A stretch of 64,000 nucleotides of DNA from Ignavibacteriales bacterium (GCA_016192345.1 JACPUH010000021.1:58523-122522); one strand, 5' to 3'. Positions 5,339 through 39,828 are shown, numbered from the stretch's first letter. The notes: generated from the letters alone by a model not told the origin. Program-made: numbers and translations.

Positions 5339-7579
5339 TTACTTCAAGAGCACCATTTTTTTGGCGGTCATGAAATCACTCACCCTGAGTTGATAGATAT
5401 ACACACCGGTGGAAAGCCGCGACGCATCGAACGTCGCCACAAACGTTCCCGCCATTTGGTCTGCATTGACGACCGATGCGACTTCCTGGCCAAGGACATT
5501 GAACACCTTTAGGGTGACCCTGCCGGGAACCGGGATGGAATACCGGATCGTCGTACTGGGATTGAAGGGATTCGGATAATTCTGGCTCAGCTCAAAATGA
5601 CCGGGGACGAGATCAACGGTTTCGACGCTTGTGACCGTCCCGAAGTCGTCATCCTTGCGCGGCTCGAGTTTGTAGAAGCTGAACGAATAGTCAAGGATTC
5701 CGCGTAGGAATGACAACCGTGCCCTGTAGGGAATGAGAATGGCATTGGAAGGCTTCGCCGTATAGGAGGCTGACGTGTCGGCGTAATATCTGTTGACTCC
5801 ATTGTCATCCACCCTCAATCCGAACGTTGTGGTGGCGCTGCTGCCGATGAAGAACTCGCCAAAATTACTCCCCGAACCGTTGTTGGGATTATCGGCGTTC
5901 CTTCCAACGATATACGGGTTGTTGATGTTTACCAGCACACCCTCCCACTGTTCGAACGTGGCGTTGCCGTCGACCGGAGGATTACTTAAGGAATAACTGA
6001 CCGATCCGGATCCCGATATGGAGACTGTGGTTGGTCCGGGAACAGTTTTATTCCTCGCATGGACGGTCTTCGAGAGAACCTGGATTTCCGTCTTAGAGAA
6101 GTTCTCCCGCAGGATCCCGGTGACCGTAACACTGTCTCCGCGGGCCAATGTATCAGCACGCACGCCGGCACCATTCCCATAGATCGCCACTCCCTTCCAC
6201 GCACCTGCCGATTCGGCGATATAGAGCCGGGGATTTGAAACTGTTTCCTTGAGATCAGTCGTGTCGGCCGTGACAACGCCCGAGACCGTGACCGTGTCGC
6301 CAACGAAACCCGGTCTTCCGTTGACGTACGGAGTATATTGAAGGTCATACACTGTCAGACCGCTGTTGCGGACCCGATAGAAATAGGGTACGGTCGCGTC
6401 GGGGAATGTCCCGGTGGATCCTTCAGAACCGTACGCTTCGGCGTAATAGCTGACGAGACTGTTATTTGCCTGTGCCGGGATCTGAGCGCGATACAGGGAG
6501 TCTCCAACCGCCAGCGTGAGCTTCAACCGCGTGAAGGTTCCGCTGTCCACCTTGTAGTACAGGGCTGCGCTGTCGATCGTCGCGCCGGTATTGAGGTTCG
6601 ATGCTTTGAACGTCACGCTCACGGAGCTGCTGGAAAGAGGAAGCCCTGGTGAGCGCGTGAGCCCGGTGATGCTCGGTGCAAACTTGTCAATAACCATGTC
6701 GCCCGCGTAGGTGGACCCATTCAACTGACCCGGTCCCGGGTACAGCGGCATGATCGTGTAGTCGCCCGCTGTTCCAGTCCTCGCCTGTGGAATGATGATC
6801 CCGCGGATATAGCTGAGCTTGGTACCAACGGGGGGCGCCGTATAGCGCGAATTGGAATAACGATGTCCACGGAGCGTATAGTATCCTGAGCCGTCATACA
6901 TCTGCATCTGGTTCCCCGCGGCATCGACGAACGTGAATCTTCCCGAGGAAAGGTCGACCGAATTGACCGTGACATTCCGAATGACTACGTACATCCCCTC
7001 GTATTTTTCCCCCCGCGACGGGCGAGGTTGCGTACCGACGGCAAAGCTATCCACGGCAAGCTCAAGGGGGGCGGGGCGTGAACCGCTCTTGACAATCTCC
7101 ACGGCCACCGGGCTCGTGAATGCCGGCGCCGAGGTCGAATAGATATACATCTCCGTGAGGCTGTTGGGCTGGTTACCGAATTCCAATGCACGCCCCACAA
7201 TCGTGATAACGTCGCCGGTATCGATTGCCGTAATTTGAGTTGTTTGAGCGGCATCGGAGGTGTCGTTTGTTAGGACGTTCAATCCCGCATAAATCGCCCC
7301 CGTCGTCGTGTCCTGGATGAAGATATTGTACCGGGCGAGCGTATAGGTGAGAATTCTGGGCTTTACCAGGACGACCCCCGTTACGCGAACCGTGTCGTTG
7401 TCCCGGACGAATTGTGTATCATCCAGAAGTGTCGACGCAGCACTTTGCTGTTGGTCCATTTTGACCAAGGAATCGATCGGCACGATATTGAGTTGGGGGA
7501 TAGTGACATTTTTCTGCGCGGAGGCAAGAGAAACGATGCCTGCCAGGCAGAAAACGGTTAACAGTAGATGTGTTCTCAT
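5339..7579 (-). CDS. secreted protein with T9SS C-terminal sorting domain (Por_secre_tail)
   Basis: 746 aa with signal peptide MRTHLLLTVFCLAGIVSLASAQ. The C-terminus NYPNPFNPSTTIRYSIP...GVYIYQLRV...KKMVLLK matches the type A T9SS CTD (TIGR04183-like). Confidence 0.75.
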   Translation of the reverse strand: MRTHLLLTVFCLAGIVSLASAQKNVTIPQLNIVPIDSLVKMDQQQSAASTLLDDTQFVRDNDTVRVTGVVLVKPRILTYTLARYNIFIQDTTTGAIYAGLNVLTNDTSDAAQTTQITAIDTGDVITIVGRALEFGNQPNSLTEMYIYSTSAPAFTSPVAVEIVKSGSRPAPLELAVDSFAVGTQPRPSRGEKYEGMYVVIRNVTVNSVDLSSGRFTFVDAAGNQMQMYDGSGYYTLRGHRYSNSRYTAPPVGTKLSYIRGIIIPQARTGTAGDYTIMPLYPGPGQLNGSTYAGDMVIDKFAPSITGLTRSPGLPLSSSSVSVTFKASNLNTGATIDSAALYYKVDSGTFTRLKLTLAVGDSLYRAQIPAQANNSLVSYYAEAYGSEGSTGTFPDATVPYFYRVRNSGLTVYDLQYTPYVNGRPGFVGDTVTVSGVVTADTTDLKETVSNPRLYIAESAGAWKGVAIYGNGAGVRADTLARGDSVTVTGILRENFSKTEIQVLSKTVHARNKTVPGPTTVSISGSGSVSYSLSNPPVDGNATFEQWEGVLVNINNPYIVGRNADNPNNGSGSNFGEFFIGSSATTTFGLRVDDNGVNRYYADTSASYTAKPSNAILIPYRARLSFLRGILDYSFSFYKLEPRKDDDFGTVTSVETVDLVPGHFELSQNYPNPFNPSTTIRYSIPVPGRVTLKVFNVLGQEVASVVNADQMAGTFVATFDASRLSTGVYIYQLRVSDFMTAKKMVLLK

Positions 7580-33379: not shown

Positions 33380-35719
33380 TCACGGCTCTCCGACGGATGC
33401 AAAGAGCGGGATCTGGAACGTCTGAACGCCAACCCTGCCCCGATCCTGCGGGACGACACGGCGACCAGCCTTTCGCGGCGCCCCCACCCCCAGTTCCACT
33501 TTTAACCTCCCCACATCGTATCCCAGGGGAAAGAGAAGCGTCTCCACTGCTTTCAGGGCGAACTCCGTGTACTGTTCGATATCGTACCCGTCCTCGAACG
33601 CGTAGAGGGCCAGCGGTTTCGCTTTCTCCGGTTTCCTTGTTCCCGACTGGTCCAGGATGATGAACTCGATCATCTCCCCCGGGGCGAGCGACACCCCCAT
33701 CGCTTTGACCATCTTCGAGACCACGGCGCTGATGCTGTTGTTCTCGTACTCATCCGGTTCCTTGCTGATATGCCGTCGCAACACCAGCTCCATCGGGTTT
33801 GCCTTGCCGCTGCGCAGGACGGCGATATGGTTACGGGCGATCATAAGCAACTCGGGGAGCATGGCCTGCACCTCCGCCACATTCTGCGCGGCGGCCATGT
33901 GGTCCAGCATGGCCTGTTGCATGGTTTTGATGAACTGCGGCACGTCGCGGCGGCGCGATTCGATGCCGCGGATCTTGATGTCGTCATGGCGATACCAACC
34001 GACGTACCGGTTTGCCGTGGTAATCACCGGGTCCTGTTTCGAGGCAGGGAACAGGATCCAGCGATAGATCCCTTCCAACGAAATATCGATGCCAGCTTGC
34101 TTTCCGATCTCCGTCGCCAGTTCCTCGTAATCATGTTCCGTCGCCCCCGATTTCTTCAACCACACACAGTCGATGATCGCATGGAGCATCCGGAACCCGC
34201 CCCGCTCGGCCACCTCCTTCGCCCGGAGGATGGCATCGCGGGAGAAGGCATTCACGGCCTCGTGCGCCTCGATCTTCCCGAAGCGCGCGTTCTTATAGCC
34301 GAGATACCCGAAGCAGCTGACGAGCATCCACTTGAGGGCGTTCTGGCGGTGGTCATATTTCCGGAACTCAGCTTCGTTCTTTCCCCGGTTCAGCTTTTTG
34401 AGCCGTTTATAGTGGGACCGACGTTCCACCACGGCGCGCAGGGTCGCCGGGATCACCCCCTCGCGCTTTTCGCAGATCGTATAGCCCAATTCCGGGACGC
34501 GTTCGTTTCTGCAACAGCGGCAATTGACCGTCTCCGGCGAGACATTCCGCTCCACCATGATCGTCGGGTACATCGAGACAAAATCGAGTTCGGCAACCTC
34601 TTCATGATATCCAAGGGGCGGGTTGTAGATGAGTCCGCCCCGATCGGCCAGCATCAGCGTTGATGCCGGCTTGAACTCCTCCGGCTCACGCTTCTTTGCC
34701 GGGATCAGCACATTGTTGCGGTACGCCCACGACAGTTGCATGGAAGACATGGAGGTCCCGATGCTCGCACGCGCCTGGCGCTGGACCGGTATCTGCGTCA
34801 GCCGCGTCAGTTCGAACACCCCCTCCAGGTCCGCCTCACCCAGCGTGAAGGAATTTTTCTCGTCCAGGTGCCACCTCCCGGCCAGTTCGAAGGCTCCATC
34901 CTTGTGCACAATCTTGCCGTACTGGAAGAAGCTTGATTCCCGCGTGGTGGCGTATCCGGCGTGCGGATCACGGTTCAAGAGCAAAGGTACATTGAGCTGT
35001 TGGGCCAGACCGGTGATGTGTGGCAACAGGATCGAATCGCCGTACTCTGTGATCAGGACATCAGGGTCGCTCCGGTGCAGGTGCCAGTTAAGCGTCTCCA
35101 GGACCTCGCGCGGGTTGTGCTGTTCCAACGCGTACGTGCGCCCGTCATAACTCACCTCCAGTTGTACGTACTTCCGGTACTTCGGAGGGACGAACGAGTT
35201 CGCATCCCGCAGCCACAGAATGGACAGGGGCGGGAGGGAATAGTCCATGGCTTCACGCGCATCGTTGATCGTCCACGTGAGAAGATGGTTTTGTTCATCG
35301 ATGACGTACTCCCCGCGCGCAAGCGGGAACAGTCCCGTTTCATAGAGAAAGAGCTGCGGAACCAGGACATCCGAGTTGAAGAATGCGAAGTGGGGAAAGA
35401 ACCGCTCGTAGTACCAGACGACCTTCTTGAACTGGAGCGGGTTGTGGACAAAGACCTGCAGCACATCCCATGATTCGCCGGAGTAGATTTCCGTGTGCGT
35501 CGTCCGGTTAAAGGAGACCCGCGCGGGACACTGTGCGCCCAGCAGGAGCGCCCGTTTTGCATCGAAGTCGCTCAGGTGAAGAAAAAACGACGGGGTAAAC
35601 GGAGCGAGACAGCGATAGCGCCGGCCCGTTGTACTGAGAAGCCAGACGACAACCCCATCGGCTGACGGATAGACGTCGAAGAGATACCCATCAATGGTTT
35701 CTGATGTCCCGGGATTCAT
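33380..35719 (-). CDS. family-B DNA polymerase of archaeal type, exonuclease motifs lost and motif C divergent
   Basis: Track ORF trimmed to MNPGTSETIDGYLFDVYPSADGVVVWLL, which aligns with the PolB N-terminus (MILDVDYITEEGKPVIRLF). Motif A is intact (LDFVSMYPTIMVERNVSPETV) and motif B is KWMLVSCFGYLGYKN. Motif C reads MLHAIIDCVWL where YGDTDS is expected. Exo I is LSILWLRDANSF (no DxE) and Exo II is EYGDSILLPHI where YNGDSFDFPYL is expected. Confidence 0.8.
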   Translation of the reverse strand: MNPGTSETIDGYLFDVYPSADGVVVWLLSTTGRRYRCLAPFTPSFFLHLSDFDAKRALLLGAQCPARVSFNRTTHTEIYSGESWDVLQVFVHNPLQFKKVVWYYERFFPHFAFFNSDVLVPQLFLYETGLFPLARGEYVIDEQNHLLTWTINDAREAMDYSLPPLSILWLRDANSFVPPKYRKYVQLEVSYDGRTYALEQHNPREVLETLNWHLHRSDPDVLITEYGDSILLPHITGLAQQLNVPLLLNRDPHAGYATTRESSFFQYGKIVHKDGAFELAGRWHLDEKNSFTLGEADLEGVFELTRLTQIPVQRQARASIGTSMSSMQLSWAYRNNVLIPAKKREPEEFKPASTLMLADRGGLIYNPPLGYHEEVAELDFVSMYPTIMVERNVSPETVNCRCCRNERVPELGYTICEKREGVIPATLRAVVERRSHYKRLKKLNRGKNEAEFRKYDHRQNALKWMLVSCFGYLGYKNARFGKIEAHEAVNAFSRDAILRAKEVAERGGFRMLHAIIDCVWLKKSGATEHDYEELATEIGKQAGIDISLEGIYRWILFPASKQDPVITTANRYVGWYRHDDIKIRGIESRRRDVPQFIKTMQQAMLDHMAAAQNVAEVQAMLPELLMIARNHIAVLRSGKANPMELVLRRHISKEPDEYENNSISAVVSKMVKAMGVSLAPGEMIEFIILDQSGTRKPEKAKPLALYAFEDGYDIEQYTEFALKAVETLLFPLGYDVGRLKVELGVGAPRKAGRRVVPQDRGRVGVQTFQIPLFASVGEP

Positions 35720-35799
35720 GGGAGGATGCTCATGCTTGCTCTGTCTGTTCGGGAAGGATACGGGAATGGAAACGGAACAATCCAAAGATGCCCGTCACG

Positions 35800-36069
35800 T
35801 TACACGCGGTACACTTTTTCCTCCAGCCGTGCAAGGCGTTGTTTCAACTCGCGCATGACCCTCCCTTGCTCGACGATAATCGACATCATGATGCTTTCGA
35901 ACGGGATGGTCCGCATGGCATAAAAATTGGCCGCCAGTTGCCGCCGCGCGGAGCGAAAGACCTCATCGAAGAGTTCCTGGTCTTCCTTGCGGAGTCCCTG
36001 CCGGTACTTCGACCAGCTGACGATCTCGCTGTCGATGATGTTCGTGAAGGTCGGTACGGTACGTCCCAT
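35800..36069 (-). CDS. small hypothetical protein with C-terminal coiled-coil
   Basis: About 89 aa (MGRTVPTFTNIIDSEIVSWSKYRQGL...MRELKQRLARLEEKVYRV). A strong SD, GGAGGAG, sits 7 nt upstream of the ATG. Its 5' part overlaps the 3' tail of the upstream ORF in another frame. Confidence 0.5.
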   Translation of the reverse strand: MGRTVPTFTNIIDSEIVSWSKYRQGLRKEDQELFDEVFRSARRQLAANFYAMRTIPFESIMMSIIVEQGRVMRELKQRLARLEEKVYRV

Positions 36070-36790
36070 AACGGTCTCCTCCTTTCGCCGGGGGAACCTC
36101 ATTTCCGCTCCGGTGGATGATTGGTGTGCTGAGTTCCTCCTGCTCCAGGATCAATCGGGATACTTCCGGCCTGACATCCAGCCGGTAGACCCGGTCTGCA
36201 CGGGCCTTGACGGTTGTGAACAGGATGTTTCGCTCCTCCGGCAAAACCTGTCGGTCCGTGCATGCCAGGAGGAGGGAAACCCCGGCGCGCTTCAACTCAT
36301 GCAGCGTCGCCAGCACGCGCACCAGAATCTGTCGTACTTCACGGAACGGGGCCTGCTCGTCGTAGAACGTATCGAGCAAGCCGAGGATCAAGACGGTGTT
36401 GGCCTGCTGTTTCCGGCAAACCTCCGGCAACCGGTTCACGATGGTCTGTTCCATCTGGTAGCAGGTAAAGCTCCGTGAAACGAAAATACGACGCAGGAAA
36501 TCGTCGGGGTTGCGTTTCCCGTACTGTGCGAACCGGATGACCGCGTGAGCGTTGAACCGGTTCCCGCCGTCAGCCACCACGACATGGCCCCCTTCCGCCA
36601 GCATCGCGGAGGCAATGTTCATGGAGAGATCAAATACGGGCCGGTCGCCGTACAACAGGTACACCTTGCCGGGAGGCCGGGAAAACCGTTGCACCAGCTC
36701 CTCGGCCTGCAGGACGGGTCTTGCAAGAGAGGAGTGCGGCGCGGGGGGGGGCGGATATCGCCCGTGGGCTCCATGGCCTCCCATGCTCAT
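35963..36790 (-). CDS. RecA-fold (ImuA/SulA-like) protein with degenerate Walker A
   Basis: The track ORF extends to 37015, but its first 76 codons overlap the DUF72 gene. I prefer the Met at 36790, which overlaps the DUF72 stop (ATGA). The core GKVYLLYGDRPVFDLSMNIASAMLAEGGHVVVADGGNRFNAHAVIRFAQ ... TVLILGLLD follows the RecA/KaiC/ImuA strand-loop-helix pattern without GKT/S. The last ~35 aa are low-complexity and overlap the small ORF, so a frameshift or an earlier true stop is possible. Confidence 0.5.
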   Translation of the reverse strand: MSMGGHGAHGRYPPPPAPHSSLARPVLQAEELVQRFSRPPGKVYLLYGDRPVFDLSMNIASAMLAEGGHVVVADGGNRFNAHAVIRFAQYGKRNPDDFLRRIFVSRSFTCYQMEQTIVNRLPEVCRKQQANTVLILGLLDTFYDEQAPFREVRQILVRVLATLHELKRAGVSLLLACTDRQVLPEERNILFTTVKARADRVYRLDVRPEVSRLILEQEELSTPIIHRSGNEVPPAKGGDRYGTYRTDLHEHHRQRDRQLVEVPAGTPQGRPGTLR

Positions 36791-37704
36791 CGTTCCTCCG
36801 GATGCGGGGAAAACAACGGATGAAGGATATTCACCGGCGTACTGATCGGCTGGAGGACGGGAAACGCCTTCACGAGACGATCCGGCACCAGCACCGGATG
36901 CCGCGACCGCAGCAGGTGCCGCAACTGGAATCCGTTTATGAAGGAACAGGCTCCTCCATCGTTGTTGAAGCTCACATGCACGATTCCGGATTGCTCCGCC
37001 CGCTTCAAACGCCATGCGAGATCCTGGAGCTCACGGTCGTTATAGCAATAGTCATACCGGTATCCCCGCGTGGGGTCCCACCATGCCGCGGCATTCCTCC
37101 CCATCAAACGAAAATAGGAAACGCCATTCCACGCGGCATCGGTGAGCGGCATAGCGCGTCCCACTACGGGAACATCGATATTGACCAAATGGAATTTATT
37201 CTCCTGGAAAAAGTTGTACATCATCGGACTGTTCCATGAATTATGCCTCACCTCAACGAACAACCGGTACGGTTGGAAAGCACGCGCGAGTTCCATAAGA
37301 TAGAGGCGCCGTTCCCGGATATTGGTGAACGAGTACGGGAACTGCATCAGGAGGCCCCCCAGCCGGTTGGCCGCCGCAAGAGGTTCCAGAAGTCTGTGCG
37401 TTGCAAGGACATCCCCCTGGTCAGCCGTGCCCGTATGGGTGAACCCGCGGAACAATTTCACCGAGGAGAAAAGAAAGTGCTTGTTGGCGGCAACATCCCG
37501 CAGCCACCGGCGGGCATGGATCGGCGTCAACGCCGAACTGTAGAATGACGAGTGAATTTCCACACTATCAAAAAACTGGCTGTAATACTCCAGTTTCCGG
37601 AACCCCCGCTTTGTCCCCGGGGGATAAAATACCCGGTCGAACGGCTCCAGGTCCCATCCCCCCATCCCGATAAAGATCTTCGAACGATCGACATGCATGG
37701 ACAC
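36787..37704 (-). CDS. DUF72 (YecE/UPF0759) family protein
   Basis: 305 aa. IFIGMGGWDLEPFDRVFYPPGTKRGFRKLEYYSQFFDSVEIHSSFYS matches the DUF72 N-terminal signature. GGAGGG lies upstream of the ATG. Confidence 0.75.
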   Translation of the reverse strand: MSMHVDRSKIFIGMGGWDLEPFDRVFYPPGTKRGFRKLEYYSQFFDSVEIHSSFYSSALTPIHARRWLRDVAANKHFLFSSVKLFRGFTHTGTADQGDVLATHRLLEPLAAANRLGGLLMQFPYSFTNIRERRLYLMELARAFQPYRLFVEVRHNSWNSPMMYNFFQENKFHLVNIDVPVVGRAMPLTDAAWNGVSYFRLMGRNAAAWWDPTRGYRYDYCYNDRELQDLAWRLKRAEQSGIVHVSFNNDGGACSFINGFQLRHLLRSRHPVLVPDRLVKAFPVLQPISTPVNILHPLFSPHPEER

Positions 37705-37854
37705 CCTCCTTTAAAAAAGGCGTCATCGTTCGACCTCGCTCACGATGACATGATTTTGTATTGCTCGAGAAGCTGAACATAGAACATCACTCAGCTCCCG
37801 GTGACCACTTGACACCAACACGAAAATTGTCTACATTGGCCTCGTCAAGGATGC

Positions 37855-37898
37855 GACATATTTGTCGCTTTGTCAAGAGAAAAAATGACAAAAATGTC
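37855..37898. promoter_or_regulatory. pair of GACA-N4-TGTC inverted repeats upstream of the LexA-like gene (candidate operator)
   Basis: gacatatttgtc at 37855-37866 and gacaaaaatgtc at 37887-37898. Both are 12-nt sites, 32 bp apart centre to centre, and 34-77 nt upstream of the ATG at 37932. Confidence 0.35.
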
Positions 37899-37931
37899 TA
37901 TGCAGAAAAACCCCCTACAGGAGCGCACGGT

Positions 37932-38582
37932 ATGAAACAATCCATTGCACAACGCATCCGCATTGCGAGAACGGAGAAGGAGATCGAACAGGGGACGCTT
38001 GCCGCAAAACTTGACGTTGCGCGACGCACCGTCCAACGCTGGGAAAAGGGGGAACAGGTGCCCGACAGTAATTACCTGATGCGCATCGCGAAAATCACCG
38101 GCGTGACACCCCATTGGTTGCTGACCGGAGACGGGGATATGTACGCCAAACCATCGGAAGCGGCCATTCTTCCGCTCGCCACCCAACGCTATAAAAAAGT
38201 CGAGCTCGTCAGGCTTCCCCTCCTCTCCTCCGTCCCCGGCGGGGCGCCAAGCCTCATCTTCCATCCCGACTATGTCGAGAAGTATATCACCGTGGACGAT
38301 ATGCGGGACCCGAACGCGTTCGCGCTGGAGGTTAAGGGGAACAGCATGGCACCGCGCATCGAGGATGGCGACATCATCGTGGTGAGCCCCCGGATCGAGG
38401 CGCGGAGCGGCGATATCTGCGTGGTGCGGATCAACGAAGAGGATACCGTCAAGAAGATCAAGATCGAGGAGCGGTACCTCCACCTTATCCCTCTCAACCC
38501 GGAGTACGAGCCGATGGTGGTACAGAAAAAAGACGTGGCGTTCATGTGGCGGGTGGTGAAGGTCATTAAAGAGATCGGATAG
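37932..38582 (+). CDS. LexA-like transcriptional repressor: XRE-type HTH plus S24 peptidase domain
   Basis: Trimmed to MKQSIAQRIRIARTEKEIEQGTLAAKLDVARRTVQRWEKG (HTH_XRE). The C-terminal S24 domain has GNSMAP (Ser nucleophile) and a downstream VKKIKIE Lys. It is divergent from the DUF72/ImuA-like/PolB operon. Confidence 0.8.
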   Translation: MKQSIAQRIRIARTEKEIEQGTLAAKLDVARRTVQRWEKGEQVPDSNYLMRIAKITGVTPHWLLTGDGDMYAKPSEAAILPLATQRYKKVELVRLPLLSSVPGGAPSLIFHPDYVEKYITVDDMRDPNAFALEVKGNSMAPRIEDGDIIVVSPRIEARSGDICVVRINEEDTVKKIKIEERYLHLIPLNPEYEPMVVQKKDVAFMWRVVKVIKEIG

Positions 38583-38631: not shown

Positions 38632-39828
38632 ATGCAACGCGAAAAAATCGTCGTCATCTTCACCGTCTTCGTGGACATCATCGGGTTCGGCATTGTCATT
38701 CCGATCCTCCCGTTTTATGTCGGATCGTTCGGCGCGTCGCCTTTCACCATCACCCTTCTCTTTTCCGCGTTCGCGTTCTTCGCATTCCTCAGCAGCCCTT
38801 TCCTCGGCGCCCTTTCCGATAAGGTCGGACGCCGACCGGTGTTGATCGGAAGTATTTTCAGCACGGCCATCGGCTGGGTGGTGTTCGCCAGTGCAACCAG
38901 CATCCCCATGTTGTTTCTTGGAAGAATTATCGATGGCGCGGCCGCAGGTAATTTCGTCGTCGCACAGAGCTGTATCGTCGACATTGCCAAGGACGAAAAG
39001 GAGCGTTCGGCCAATATCGGACTCATTGGCGCGACGTTCGGTGTGGGATTTATGGTGGGACCGATGCTCGGCGGGGTTCTCAGCACGGTGTCTCATGCCT
39101 TCCCTTTTTGGGTCGCCGGAGGTCTTGCGCTCACCAATACCGTGCTCGCGTATTTCTTTCTTCCGGAAACACATCAGCGCCGGGACCCGAACGCCATCAT
39201 CTCGTTTAATCCTCTTGGGCCTCTCGCCCGGGCCGCGATGAACATCAAACTCCGTCCCCTCTTTCTGACCTGGATCCTTTTCGCCCTTGCGTTCATGGCG
39301 TCGCAGTCCATCTTCGCGCTCTACGCTCAGCATGCGTTCGGGTTCGATTCTTTCATGACGGGAGTCTTCTTTTCCCTCATCGGTGTCGTGACAGCTTTGA
39401 ATCAAACCGTCCTGCTGAACCGGGTCTGGCTCAAATACTTCAACGATGCGCAGCTTGAACTGTTCATGATCATCGTCCTGCTCGTCTCTTTTATCGCTCT
39501 CGGAACCCGTTCACTGGTGCTCTTTTACGTCGGGTTCCCTCTTCTTGCCACCGGCCAGGCGGTGTTACGCGTCGTCATTACAAGTCAGGTGGCGGGGAAG
39601 GCCGACCCACACATGAAAGGCGAGGCGCTGGGGATCCTGACCTCTTTAATGGCTGCAGCCATGGTGGTGGCGCCGCTCCTTTCCGGGGCCCTTTTCGAAG
39701 TGTTCGATGCACTTCCGTTCATGATGAGCGCTCTCCTCATGGGGGCGGCGTTCTGGATTGCCCTCAGCTTTCGGCGGCGGGGGTCGCTTGCCCACCGTAC
39801 GACGGCTTCGGAACACCTGGAAACATAA
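38632..39828 (+). CDS. MFS transporter (drug:H+ antiporter-like)
   Basis: 398 aa, 12 predicted TMs. The motif ALSDKVGRRPVLIGSIF is the MFS loop 2-3 signature. Confidence 0.85.
   Translation: MQREKIVVIFTVFVDIIGFGIVIPILPFYVGSFGASPFTITLLFSAFAFFAFLSSPFLGALSDKVGRRPVLIGSIFSTAIGWVVFASATSIPMLFLGRIIDGAAAGNFVVAQSCIVDIAKDEKERSANIGLIGATFGVGFMVGPMLGGVLSTVSHAFPFWVAGGLALTNTVLAYFFLPETHQRRDPNAIISFNPLGPLARAAMNIKLRPLFLTWILFALAFMASQSIFALYAQHAFGFDSFMTGVFFSLIGVVTALNQTVLLNRVWLKYFNDAQLELFMIIVLLVSFIALGTRSLVLFYVGFPLLATGQAVLRVVITSQVAGKADPHMKGEALGILTSLMAAAMVVAPLLSGALFEVFDALPFMMSALLMGAAFWIALSFRRRGSLAHRTTASEHLET

What the first reader, a model, noticed from the sequence alone, without database searches (positions are those of the whole stretch)
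37705..37931. Repeated GACA-N4-TGTC palindromes and a GTCATCG/CGATGAC inverted repeat in the divergent promoter region of the cassette
Two 12-nt sites, gacatatttgtc and gacaaaaatgtc, lie 32 bp apart just upstream of the LexA-like gene. This is typical of an autoregulated dimeric-repressor operator pair. A separate 7-bp perfect inverted repeat (gtcatcg ... cgatgac, 37722-37750) lies on the DUF72-operon side. Neither matches the E. coli CTGT-N8-ACAG box, as expected for a non-proteobacterial LexA-like protein.
Basis: seen in the sequence. Interest (0 to 1): 0.5.

Follow-up and report, generated by a model that had tools for sequence, protein, structure and literature searches.

The report
Operator pair of Ignavibacteria LexA-like repressor
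Two GACA-N4-TGTC palindromes between a LexA-like repressor gene and a DNA-damage polymerase (PolB2) operon are almost certainly the repressor's binding sites, because the same paired motif recurs at this gene in about 100 related Ignavibacteria genomes, giving a previously undescribed SOS-type box.

Summary
GACATATTTGTC (37855-37866) and GACAAAAATGTC (37887-37898) lie 32 bp apart. They are the only strong matches to the motif in the 64-kb window.

In 80 species-level Ignavibacteria genomes, 79 have GACA-(A/T-rich N4)-TGTC within 2 kb upstream of the orthologous gene, and 72 have it as a pair. An unbiased dyad count ranks it first (62 of 73 upstream regions). Its density there is about 100 times that elsewhere.

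The adjacent gene encodes a phage-CI-type helix-turn-helix fused to an S24 self-cleaving peptidase. The Ser/Lys dyad is conserved and the recognition helix is its best-conserved segment.

The divergent genes are the known bacterial PolB2 translesion operon (iRadA-PPB2-PolB2), preceded by DUF72. O1 sits in the 17-nt spacer of a conserved minus-strand TTGACA/TAnnnT promoter facing that operon. Both sites lie just downstream of a conserved promoter facing the repressor gene. One operator pair therefore probably shuts both.

The protein is not a canonical LexA, not a member of the Bacteroidetes non-canonical LexA clade, and not a phage gene. No published LexA motif is present.

The GTCATCG/CGATGAC repeat is real, but it is not conserved and is near chance level. 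Binding, RecA-triggered cleavage and the wider regulon remain untested.

The parts
37855..37866 (.). Operator O1, GACATATTTGTC. It is the core of the 16-bp dyad GCGACA-TATT-TGTCGC (37853-37868).
   Evidence: Exact match; 24.7 bits, the best in the window. A homologous site is present upstream of the orthologous gene in 79 of 80 genomes. It lies in the 17-nt spacer of the leftward promoter.
37887..37898 (.). Operator O2, GACAAAAATGTC, 32 bp (about 3 helical turns) from O1.
   Evidence: Exact match; 20.7 bits. A 30-33 bp pairing is seen in 37 exact pairs, mode 32. 55 of 80 loci have at least two exact sites and 17 more have a degenerate partner at 30-32 bp.
37809..37837 (+). Predicted rightward promoter for the repressor gene: TTGACA (37809-37814), 17 nt, TACATT (37832-37837). 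The inferred start is near 37844, which puts O1 at about +12 and O2 at about +44.
   Evidence: Consensus scan, 10 of 12 matches. TTGAC-N17-19-TAnnnT lies upstream of O1 in 50 of 54 non-identical paired regions, ending 15-17 nt or 2-8 nt before O1. The transcription start is inferred, not measured.
37848..37876 (-). Predicted leftward promoter for DUF72-iRadA-PPB2-PolB2. The -35 TTGACA is the reverse complement of 37871-37876. The 17-nt spacer is 37854-37870 and contains O1. The -10 is CATCCT, the reverse complement of 37848-37853. The inferred start is near 37841.
   Evidence: A minus-strand TTGACA lies exactly 4 nt after O1 in 38 of 54 paired regions. In 36 of those 38 it is followed after exactly 17 nt by TAnnnT, mostly TATCTT. 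The window lineage has a weaker -10 (CATCCT). This promoter explains the conserved CTTGTCAAG block.
37932..38582 (+). LexA-like repressor gene (216 aa): a five-helix XRE/CI-type HTH joined to a Peptidase_S24 domain.
   Evidence: Pfam HTH_3 8e-11, Phage_CI_repr 8e-9, Peptidase_S24 1.9e-26. It scores below the TIGR00498 lexA cut-off. G103-G104, S138 and K174 align with LexA A84-G85, S119 and K156. Helix 3 is the most conserved segment. AF2 is confident only for residues 1-70, which form five helices.
36787..37698 (-). DUF72 gene, first gene of the divergent unit (ATG at 37698, GGAGG upstream).
   Evidence: Pfam DUF72 7e-42. It is divergent from the repressor gene in 20 of 80 loci and in many metagenome hits. 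DUF72 is reported as enriched near polB2 (PMC11791011).
35963..37015 (-). iRadA (inactivated RadA/Rad51-like partner of PolB2).
   Evidence: Weak RadA matches (E 0.005-0.008). No GK[ST] Walker A motif in the translation. It lies next to the repressor gene in 33 of 80 loci. The gene order matches the published operon.
35800..36102 (-). PPB2-like small helical protein (probable start at M12, about 36069).
   Evidence: No Pfam hit. It is conserved between iRadA and PolB2 in relatives. phrog_26583 2.4e-14 from residue 12. The position matches iRadA-PPB2-PolB2.
33380..35785 (-). PolB2-type family-B DNA polymerase.
   Evidence: Pfam DNA_pol_B 1.4e-33. It resembles archaeal-type PolB models (NF004418, 2.4e-119, below cut-off) far more than Pol II. 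Relatives are 56-90% identical and lie next to the repressor gene.
37722..37749 (-). Inverted repeat GTCATCGT-N12-ACGATGAC in the predicted DUF72 leader, followed on the minus strand by GCCTTTTTT. Lineage-specific hairpin or chance; not an operator.
   Evidence: Present but not conserved in L001/L002 or other DUF72 loci. Fold z = -1.9. Background rate 0.11 per 228 bp.

Best explanation
The two GACA-W4-TGTC dyads are the operators of the adjacent CI-type HTH/S24-peptidase repressor. This is a non-canonical, LexA-like regulator specific to Ignavibacteria. A dimer binds each dyad. The dyads lie 32 bp apart, on the same face of the helix, so two dimers probably bind cooperatively. O1 occupies the spacer between the -35 and -10 of the leftward promoter that drives DUF72-iRadA-PPB2-PolB2, a translesion 'PolB2 mutasome' operon. 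Both O1 and O2 lie just downstream of the rightward promoter of the repressor's own gene. Occupancy therefore represses both the repressor (autoregulation) and the polymerase cassette. After DNA damage, RecA-ssDNA filaments are expected to trigger self-cleavage at G103-G104 by the S138/K174 dyad, which would release the operators and induce both units. What is shown here: the sites, their conservation, their pairing, their fixed register with promoter-like hexamers, the domain make-up and the catalytic residues. What is inferred: binding by this protein, the transcription starts, cooperativity, RecA-dependent cleavage and damage induction.
For: Site presence and rarity:
- The motif is present upstream of the ortholog in 79 of 80 species-level genomes.
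- Site density is 5.5 per kb upstream against 0.05 per kb elsewhere in 840 kb.
- Among all 4-Nn-4 dyads it ranks first, 62 of 73 non-redundant regions, against a background of 0.005 per 250 bp.
- The core is invariant, the spacer is A/T, and the flanks are weak.

Pairing and association with the gene:
- 55 loci have pairs and 17 more have degenerate partners at 30-32 bp.
- The motif follows the repressor gene whether or not the cassette is adjacent.
- Extra strong sites elsewhere in the loci sit directly upstream of iRadA or of operons containing the repressor gene (L045, L058, L078).
- Where iRadA is directly divergent, one site lies at each promoter, 98 or 109 bp apart.
- O1 keeps an exact register with a minus-strand TTGACA-17-TAnnnT (36 of 38) and the pair lies after a plus-strand TTGAC-17-TAnnnT (50 of 54).

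The protein:
- Domains and catalytic residues are as expected for a self-cleaving repressor.
- The recognition helix is 92% conserved against 56-81% for the rest.
- A random sample of paired sites in metagenomes hit further, more diverged orthologs (51-82% identity) in 24 of 120 cases, usually with DUF72 or PolB2 alongside.

Literature:
- polB2 neighbourhoods in bacteria are enriched in lexA and DUF72, and PolB2 operons are damage-induced in archaea (PMC11791011).
Against: - There is no experimental binding, cleavage or expression data.
- The scissile position is Gly-Gly in this protein and most orthologs (Ala-Gly in a few), not the canonical Ala-Gly, so cleavage efficiency is uncertain.
- The leftward -10 in this window's lineage is weak (CATCCT).
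- The promoter type used by Ignavibacteria is not established here. Intergenic enrichment of the sigma-70 pattern is confounded by the lexA promoters themselves.
- No recA, uvr or dinB gene could be examined, so 'SOS master regulator' is not shown.
- The paired motif also occurs in unrelated contexts in metagenomes (96 of 120 sampled hits). The motif alone is therefore not diagnostic.
Confidence: 0.8

Rival explanations
1. The dyads are operators, but for a different transcription factor encoded elsewhere. The adjacent S24 protein binds something else.
For: Binding is inferred only from co-location. Paired GACA-W4-TGTC sites also occur beside other genes in other taxa.
Against: The motif tracks this gene in 79 of 80 genomes whatever the neighbours are, and is about 100 times rarer elsewhere. 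No second conserved dyad is available as this protein's own site. The recognition helix and the half-site are both invariant.
Confidence: 0.07
2. The elements act at the RNA level. O1 and O2 are mutually complementary (20-nt arms, 80%), so they could form a leader hairpin that controls translation or stability of the repressor mRNA.
For: In this window both sites lie in the predicted 5' leader of the repressor transcript, and repeat I1 joins them.
Against: In other lineages one site lies upstream of, or inside, promoter elements and the two are 98-109 bp apart at separate promoters. The core never varies, so there are no compensatory changes. Each site is a self-dyad with an A/T spacer and fixed register to the hexamers, which is typical of protein-DNA sites.
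Confidence: 0.04
3. This is a prophage immunity region: a phage CI repressor with its operators, not a cellular damage regulator.
For: The full-length protein matches phrog_4, CI-like repressors (4e-48), and Phage_CI_repr.
Against: 2.9 million viral contigs hold no close relative; the best is 31% identity over part of the protein. Orthologs of 60-98% identity occur in 80 species with chromosomal synteny to PolB2, DUF72 and housekeeping genes, and no phage genes are adjacent.
Confidence: 0.03
4. The GTCATCG/CGATGAC repeat is a functional element, such as a second operator or a leader attenuator for the DUF72 operon.
For: It is a perfect 8-bp stem followed on the minus strand by GCC-T6, just before the ribosome-binding site. 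L001 has a different hairpin at the same place, followed by the same T-run.
Against: The sequence is not conserved in the nearest relatives. Fold z-scores are modest to positive across orthologs. The chance rate is 0.11 per 228 bp. It does not resemble the operator motif.
Confidence: 0.15

Closest known systems
[quoted passage not shown] 2021, PMC8565304)
   Same: A PF01381-type HTH fused to an S24 peptidase. It is autoregulated through short dyads with a non-contacted spacer, often two or more sites per promoter, and controls damage-tolerance polymerases in a lineage of the same superphylum that lacks canonical LexA.
   Different: The S24 domain here scores only 31-32 bits against the two validated proteins, but 58-64 bits against E. 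coli LexA, lambda CI and UmuD. It lacks their C-terminal extension after the S24 core. The motif is different (4-N4-4, GACA/TGTC) and their motifs are absent here. That paper reports its family as exclusive to Bacteroidetes and never mentions Ignavibacteria.
FddR of Francisella (PMC13148647) and HdiR of Lactococcus/Streptococcus: co-opted CI-like S24 regulators
   Same: An S24 repressor that regulates itself and divergently transcribed damage genes, a 'self-contained divergently transcribed unit'. HdiR can control little more than a mutagenic cassette.
   Different: The lineages and motifs differ (FddR uses GTG-N11-CAC, absent here). The cargo here is the archaeal-derived PolB2 mutasome plus DUF72, not UmuC/DinB. 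Orthology was not tested.
Canonical LexA with an SOS box, including LexA-controlled imuA-imuB-dnaE2 mutagenesis cassettes
   Same: S24 self-cleaving repressor logic, an operator in its own promoter, and a divergent or adjacent error-prone polymerase cassette with a RecA-fold accessory protein.
   Different: There is no winged-helix LexA_DNA_bind domain and the score is below the TIGR00498 cut-off. The motif is unrelated to CTGT-N8-ACAG or GAAC-N4-GTTC. The polymerase is family B, not C or Y.
Phage 434, P22 C2 and lambda CI repressor-operator systems
   Same: The N-terminal domain matches P22 C2 and 434 repressor chains and the whole protein matches phrog_4. It recognises dyad operators with A/T-rich central bases, as adjacent sites suited to cooperative binding.
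   Different: It is chromosomal and not found in viral contigs. The core is 12 bp, against 14-18 bp phage operators. There are two sites rather than tripartite OR/OL. No cro-like partner gene is present.
Bacterial PolB2 mutasome operon iRadA-PPB2-PolB2 (Timinskas et al. 2025, PMC11791011)
   Same: The gene order and content are identical, and the reported neighbourhood enrichment for lexA and DUF72 is seen here.
   Different: As far as searched, that work names the neighbour simply lexA and gives no operator or promoter. Here the regulator is shown to be non-canonical and its candidate box and promoter layout are defined.

Membership tests
Canonical LexA (TIGR00498; PF01726 + PF00717) | N-terminal winged-helix LexA_DNA_bind domain | tested here: not met
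   Pfam finds HTH_3 and Phage_CI_repr, not PF01726. TIGR00498 scores 67.8 bits against a cut-off of 110.95 and matches only residues 94-215.
Canonical LexA (TIGR00498; PF01726 + PF00717) | S24 domain with a Ser-Lys catalytic dyad | tested here: met
   Peptidase_S24 1.9e-26. S138 and K174 align with LexA S119 and K156 and are invariant in 17 orthologs.
Canonical LexA (TIGR00498; PF01726 + PF00717) | Ala-Gly (or Cys-Gly) scissile bond | tested here: inconclusive
   The aligned position is G103-G104 here and in most orthologs, and A-G in P0103 and P0120. Whether Gly-Gly is cleaved is unknown.
Canonical LexA (TIGR00498; PF01726 + PF00717) | RecA-stimulated self-cleavage and control of recA, uvr and TLS genes | not testable with these tools
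   No recA in the window or the loci. No repair genes in the part of the window that was annotated. No whole genome was accessible.
Bacteroidetes non-canonical LexA (PMC8565304) | PF01381 HTH plus PF00717 architecture | tested here: met
Bacteroidetes non-canonical LexA (PMC8565304) | Sequence membership in that clade, including the C-terminal extension after the S24 core | tested here: not met
   31-32 bits against WP_025606010 and WP_075324850 C-terminal domains, versus 58-64 bits against LexA, CI and UmuD. The protein ends at residue 216 without the roughly 40-aa tail seen in their alignment.
Bacteroidetes non-canonical LexA (PMC8565304) | Binding motif GGA-N5-TCC or CTAA-N5-TTAG in its own promoter | tested here: not met
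   Found in 4 of 80 and 0 of 80 upstream regions respectively. The single window match overlaps the DUF72 start and ribosome-binding site.
Phage CI-type immunity repressor | CI-like HTH plus S24 domain organisation | tested here: met
   phrog_4 4e-48 over residues 1-214. P22 C2, 434 and lambda CI chains are matched.
Phage CI-type immunity repressor | Encoded in a phage or prophage next to lytic or lysogeny genes | tested here: not met
   No close homolog in IMG/VR. Chromosomal synteny is conserved across 80 species.
Co-opted S24 damage regulators with a divergent unit (HdiR, FddR type) | Dyad operator conserved in its own promoter, shared with divergently transcribed damage-response genes | tested here: met
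   This is computational only.
Co-opted S24 damage regulators with a divergent unit (HdiR, FddR type) | Damage-induced derepression shown experimentally | not testable with these tools
   Needs expression and cleavage assays.
Bacterial PolB2 mutasome operon (PMC11791011) | Gene order iRadA-PPB2-PolB2 on one strand | tested here: met
   ORFs 35963-37015, 35800-36102 and 33380-35785, all on the minus strand. The order is conserved in 30 or more loci.
Bacterial PolB2 mutasome operon (PMC11791011) | iRadA is RadA/Rad51-like with a lost ATPase site | tested here: met
   RadA/Rad51 are the only matches (E 0.005-0.02). No GK[ST] Walker A motif in the translation. The similarity is weak.
Bacterial PolB2 mutasome operon (PMC11791011) | Polymerase belongs to the archaeal-derived PolB2 group rather than Pol II | tested here: inconclusive
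   It is far closer to archaeal-type PolB models (2.4e-119) than to Pol II models (5e-15). No phylogeny against reference PolB2 was built.

The most novel reading that the evidence does not exclude
The GACA-W4-TGTC box and this CI-type S24 protein are the master SOS system of the class Ignavibacteria. That would be a third, independently recruited non-canonical 'LexA', with a regulon reaching beyond its own divergent unit to recA, uvr, exonuclease and DUF5131-type genes. It would place an archaeal-derived PolB2 mutasome under RecA-dependent control through a face-to-face promoter pair sharing one operator pair.
Probability: 0.35. Interest if true: 0.65.

Novelty: new variant of a known kind. 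Interest (0 to 1): 0.5.

Why it matters
Ignavibacteria have no described DNA-damage regulon. No paper in the library links them to LexA/SOS regulation, and none reports GACA-N4-TGTC as a LexA-type box. The bacterial PolB2 mutasome is so far known only from genome context and structure prediction. A defined repressor, box and promoter layout turn 'lexA is often nearby' into a testable circuit. They supply a weight matrix for reconstructing the regulon in any Ignavibacteria genome. They also add an independent case to the idea that SOS networks are rebuilt repeatedly from self-contained repressor/cargo units based on S24 peptidases.

Tried and rejected
- **Known LexA-type motifs** (E. coli, Gram-positive, alpha, Verrucomicrobia, the Bacteroidetes pair, FddR) are absent or at chance level upstream.
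- **Bacteroidetes-type promoter** (TTG-N19-TAnnTTTG): no clear signal. The enrichment test for the sigma-70 pattern is confounded by the lexA promoters themselves.
- **Regulon extension.**
  - No recA in the window or the loci.
  - The annotated part of the window holds no repair genes.
  - The weight-matrix scan found no further strong sites.
  - The metagenome scan for paired sites gave 24 of 120 orthologous loci. The rest were unrelated repeats, HicA-like loci of other taxa, or contigs of unknown taxon.
  - Two contigs with pairs upstream of a DnaQ-like exonuclease could not be followed, because the homolog search returned only the query.
- **AF2 model.** It is confident only for the HTH domain (mean pLDDT 52), so no fold search was run.
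- **Leader hairpin or attenuator at 37722-37749.** It is not conserved and not statistically notable.
- **Terminator-like hit at 37924-37910** on the minus strand. It overlaps the repressor's ribosome-binding site and was treated as chance.

Full report
**1. Observation**

The spacer between the DUF72 gene (ATG at 37698, minus strand) and the LexA-like gene (ATG at 37932, plus strand) contains two dyads:
- GACATATTTGTC at 37855-37866
- GACAAAAATGTC at 37887-37898, 32 bp start to start

O1 extends to a 16-bp dyad, GCGACA-TATT-TGTCGC.

The window holds three exact GACA-N4-TGTC matches against 0.98 expected. The third lies inside a SurA-like gene. With an A/T spacer only the two intergenic sites remain. 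With a weight matrix built from orthologous sites, they are the only positions at or above 13 bits in 64 kb (24.7 and 20.7 bits). Three weak coding hits are consistent with shuffles.

The GTCATCG/CGATGAC repeat is also real, with 8-bp arms at 37722-37729 and 37742-37749.

**2. The genes on either side**

The rightward gene encodes a 216-aa protein with an XRE/CI-type HTH (HTH_3, Phage_CI_repr) and a Peptidase_S24 domain.
- The C-terminal half aligns with E. coli LexA. G103-G104, S138 and K174 fall on A84-G85, S119 and K156.
- The N-terminal half matches P22 C2 and 434 repressor.
- It falls below the NCBIfam lexA cut-off and has no winged-helix LexA domain.
- AF2 gives a confident five-helix N-terminal domain but a poor S24 model.

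The leftward genes are DUF72, a weak RadA-like protein without a Walker A motif, a 100-aa protein and a family-B polymerase closest to archaeal PolB models. This is the published bacterial PolB2 mutasome operon, iRadA-PPB2-PolB2. Its neighbourhoods were reported to be enriched in lexA and DUF72 (PMC11791011).

**3. Comparative evidence for the operators**

The protein has hundreds of relatives of 70-99% identity, named from Ignavibacteria/Bacteroidota MAGs. A scan of one genome per species returned 80 Ignavibacteria loci at 60-98% identity.

- **Presence.** Exact GACA-N4-TGTC occurs within 260 bp upstream of the gene in most loci, and within 2 kb in 79 of 80. The exception is cut by a contig end.
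- **Density.** 5.5 sites per kb upstream against 0.05 per kb in the remaining 819 kb. Most of the remaining hits are one of three kinds: the same intergenic sites lying further upstream, coding matches in the repressor gene itself, or sites in front of iRadA.
- **Unbiased ranking.** Among all 4-Nn-4 dyads it ranks first, 62 of 73 non-redundant regions. The runners-up are extensions of it or the neighbouring promoter block.
- **Site composition.** The spacer is A/T and the flanks are weakly A-n-A-C / G-T-n-T.
- **Pairing.** 55 loci have at least two exact sites. Of 22 single-site loci, 17 have a degenerate partner at 30-32 bp. Spacing classes are 30-33 bp (37 pairs, mode 32), 96-98 bp (8 pairs) and 109 bp (8 pairs).
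- **Protein match.** The recognition-helix segment is the best-conserved part of the protein, 92% against 56-81% elsewhere. This matches the invariant half-site.
- **Independent sample.** A metagenome scan for paired sites with A/T spacers returned 120 hits. Of these, 24 lie beside further orthologs at 51-82% identity, usually with DUF72 or PolB2 alongside.

**4. Promoter layout (inferred)**

Alignment of the paired regions shows a conserved plus-strand TTGACA-17-TAyCTT. In this window it is 37809-37814 and 37832-37837, also found by the consensus scan. It ends 15-17 nt before O1 in this lineage, or 2-8 nt before O1 in others, and is present in 50 of 54 non-identical regions.

Between O1 and O2 lies a conserved CTTGTCAAG block.
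- Read on the minus strand, this block is a TTGACA lying exactly 4 nt from O1 in 38 of 54 regions.
- In 36 of those 38 it is followed after exactly 17 nt, the stretch that contains O1, by TAnnnT.
- In this window the elements are 37871-37876 (-35) and 37848-37853 (-10). The -10 reads CATCCT, a weaker match.

O1 therefore sits in the spacer of the promoter facing the DUF72/PolB2 operon. Both sites lie at about +12 and +44 of the repressor's own promoter. The two promoters face each other with nearly coincident predicted starts.

In lineages without DUF72 the layout is back to back. One site sits in the iRadA promoter spacer and one abuts the -10 of the repressor promoter, 98 or 109 bp apart. 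Where the cassette is not divergent (L078, L045, L058), a strong site (26.9 bits) precedes it.

**5. Mechanism proposed**

Repressor dimers bind O1 and O2, probably cooperatively because the sites are three helical turns apart. This shuts both promoters.

RecA-stimulated self-cleavage at G103-G104 would then induce the repressor gene and the DUF72-PolB2 mutasome operon. The binding, cleavage and induction steps are inferred from family knowledge (S24 repressors; PMC8565304).

**6. Comparison with known systems**

- **Not canonical LexA.** The domain test fails.
- **Not in the Bacteroidetes non-canonical LexA clade.**
  - Its S24 domain scores 31-32 bits against the two validated proteins, versus 58-64 bits against LexA, CI and UmuD.
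  - It lacks their C-terminal extension.
  - Their motifs are absent.
  - That study reports its family as exclusive to Bacteroidetes.
- **Not a phage gene.** No close relative exists in 2.9 million viral contigs, although the architecture is CI-like (phrog_4).
- **Closest in function.** It resembles the 'self-contained divergently transcribed units' of FddR (PMC13148647) and of HdiR.
- **Not in the literature.** No paper in the library reports GACA-N4-TGTC as a LexA-type box; the only two mentions concern unrelated regulators. None describes a LexA or SOS system in Ignavibacteria.

**7. The inverted repeat at 37722-37749**

It lies in the predicted DUF72 leader and is followed on the minus strand by GCC-T6 and the ribosome-binding site. 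Three things argue against a function:
- It is not conserved in L001/L002 or other DUF72 loci, whose leaders vary from 81 to 304 bp.
- Fold z-scores are -1.9 here and -0.6 to +2.3 in orthologs.
- Repeats of this size occur about 0.11 times per 228 bp in the window.

I treat it as a lineage-specific hairpin or chance, not as an operator.

**8. Limits**

The regulon beyond the local unit could not be assessed. No recA, uvr or dinB genes lie in the DNA available, the collection scans were exhausted, and one lead could not be followed. Transcription starts, binding and cleavage are all predictions.

**9. Verdict**

The operator interpretation is strongly supported and is extended to the divergent PolB2 operon. 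The second repeat is not supported as a functional element.

This is a new variant of a known kind: an S24-repressor/operator unit from a separate lineage, with a new box and a PolB2 cargo. It is of moderate interest.

Noticed in passing
window 35963-36102 (minus strand): The iRadA ORF (35963-37015) overlaps the PPB2 ORF (35800-36102) by 140 nt in a different frame (about 107 nt if PPB2 starts at M12). tblastn hits in relatives extend through the overlap in both frames. iRadA-PPB2 fusions are reported in bacteria (PMC11791011), so a frameshift or fusion relationship is conceivable.
   Followed up: partly
window 33380-35785 (minus strand): The PolB2 translation reads LHAIIDCVWL where family-B motif C (YGDTDS) is expected. 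The canonical DxD appears degenerate, as described for many PolB2 enzymes.
   Followed up: no
L028 6644-8835; L032, L035, L039, L042; L045 1001-1790; L058 223-1903: Genes for DUF3795, an unknown protein of about 294 aa and DUF5131 follow the repressor gene in at least 9 species. In L045 and L058 a 26.9-bit operator precedes the order [unknown]-DUF5131-repressor-iRadA-PPB2. These are candidate further regulon members.
   Followed up: partly
L118 8771-8813 and L164 991-1034: Paired GACA-W4-TGTC sites lie just after a terminator and upstream of RNase_T/DnaQ-like exonuclease genes. The two exonucleases are 42% identical. Both contigs are AT-rich and of unknown taxon. A homolog search returned only the query.
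   Followed up: partly
L022, L027, L028, L029, about 5400-5980: A small gene of about 136 aa is inserted between the operator pair and the repressor gene, moving the sites to -500/-600. Its translation (…YCPELKLAIEIDGDSHY…) looks like a DUF559-type endonuclease domain. This was not tested.
   Followed up: no
L001 about 5700-5860 and L031 about 5850-5960: A shared element of about 150 bp, rich in short hairpins (GTCATGCCCGC…GCGGGCATCC; GGATTCCCGACAAAA…), is inserted in the intergenic region. It resembles a miniature mobile or REP-like repeat.
   Followed up: no
L141 692, L182 2130, L199 1697: In GC-rich contigs from other taxa, pairs of GGACA-N4-TGTCC flank a TTGACA hexamer upstream of a HicA-like small ORF (MDKRDRFL…GKGGH…). 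The architecture is similar but belongs to an unrelated system.
   Followed up: partly
L104, L119, L146, L151: Arrays of repeats of about 34 bp contain GACATATATGTC (for example GACATATATGTCGCCTAGGTTAAAGGGTATACC). These account for several metagenome hits to the paired pattern.
   Followed up: no
window 38632-39828 (plus strand): An MFS transporter gene starts 50 bp after the repressor gene's stop codon. The same is seen in the closest relatives L001 and L002 only. It may be co-transcribed in this lineage.
   Followed up: no
L008 about 5640-5790: Three tandem copies of a unit of about 45 bp (…gttcttcgacagttgcactgtcgaaaaaactcc…) lie in the DUF72 leader region of this relative.
   Followed up: no
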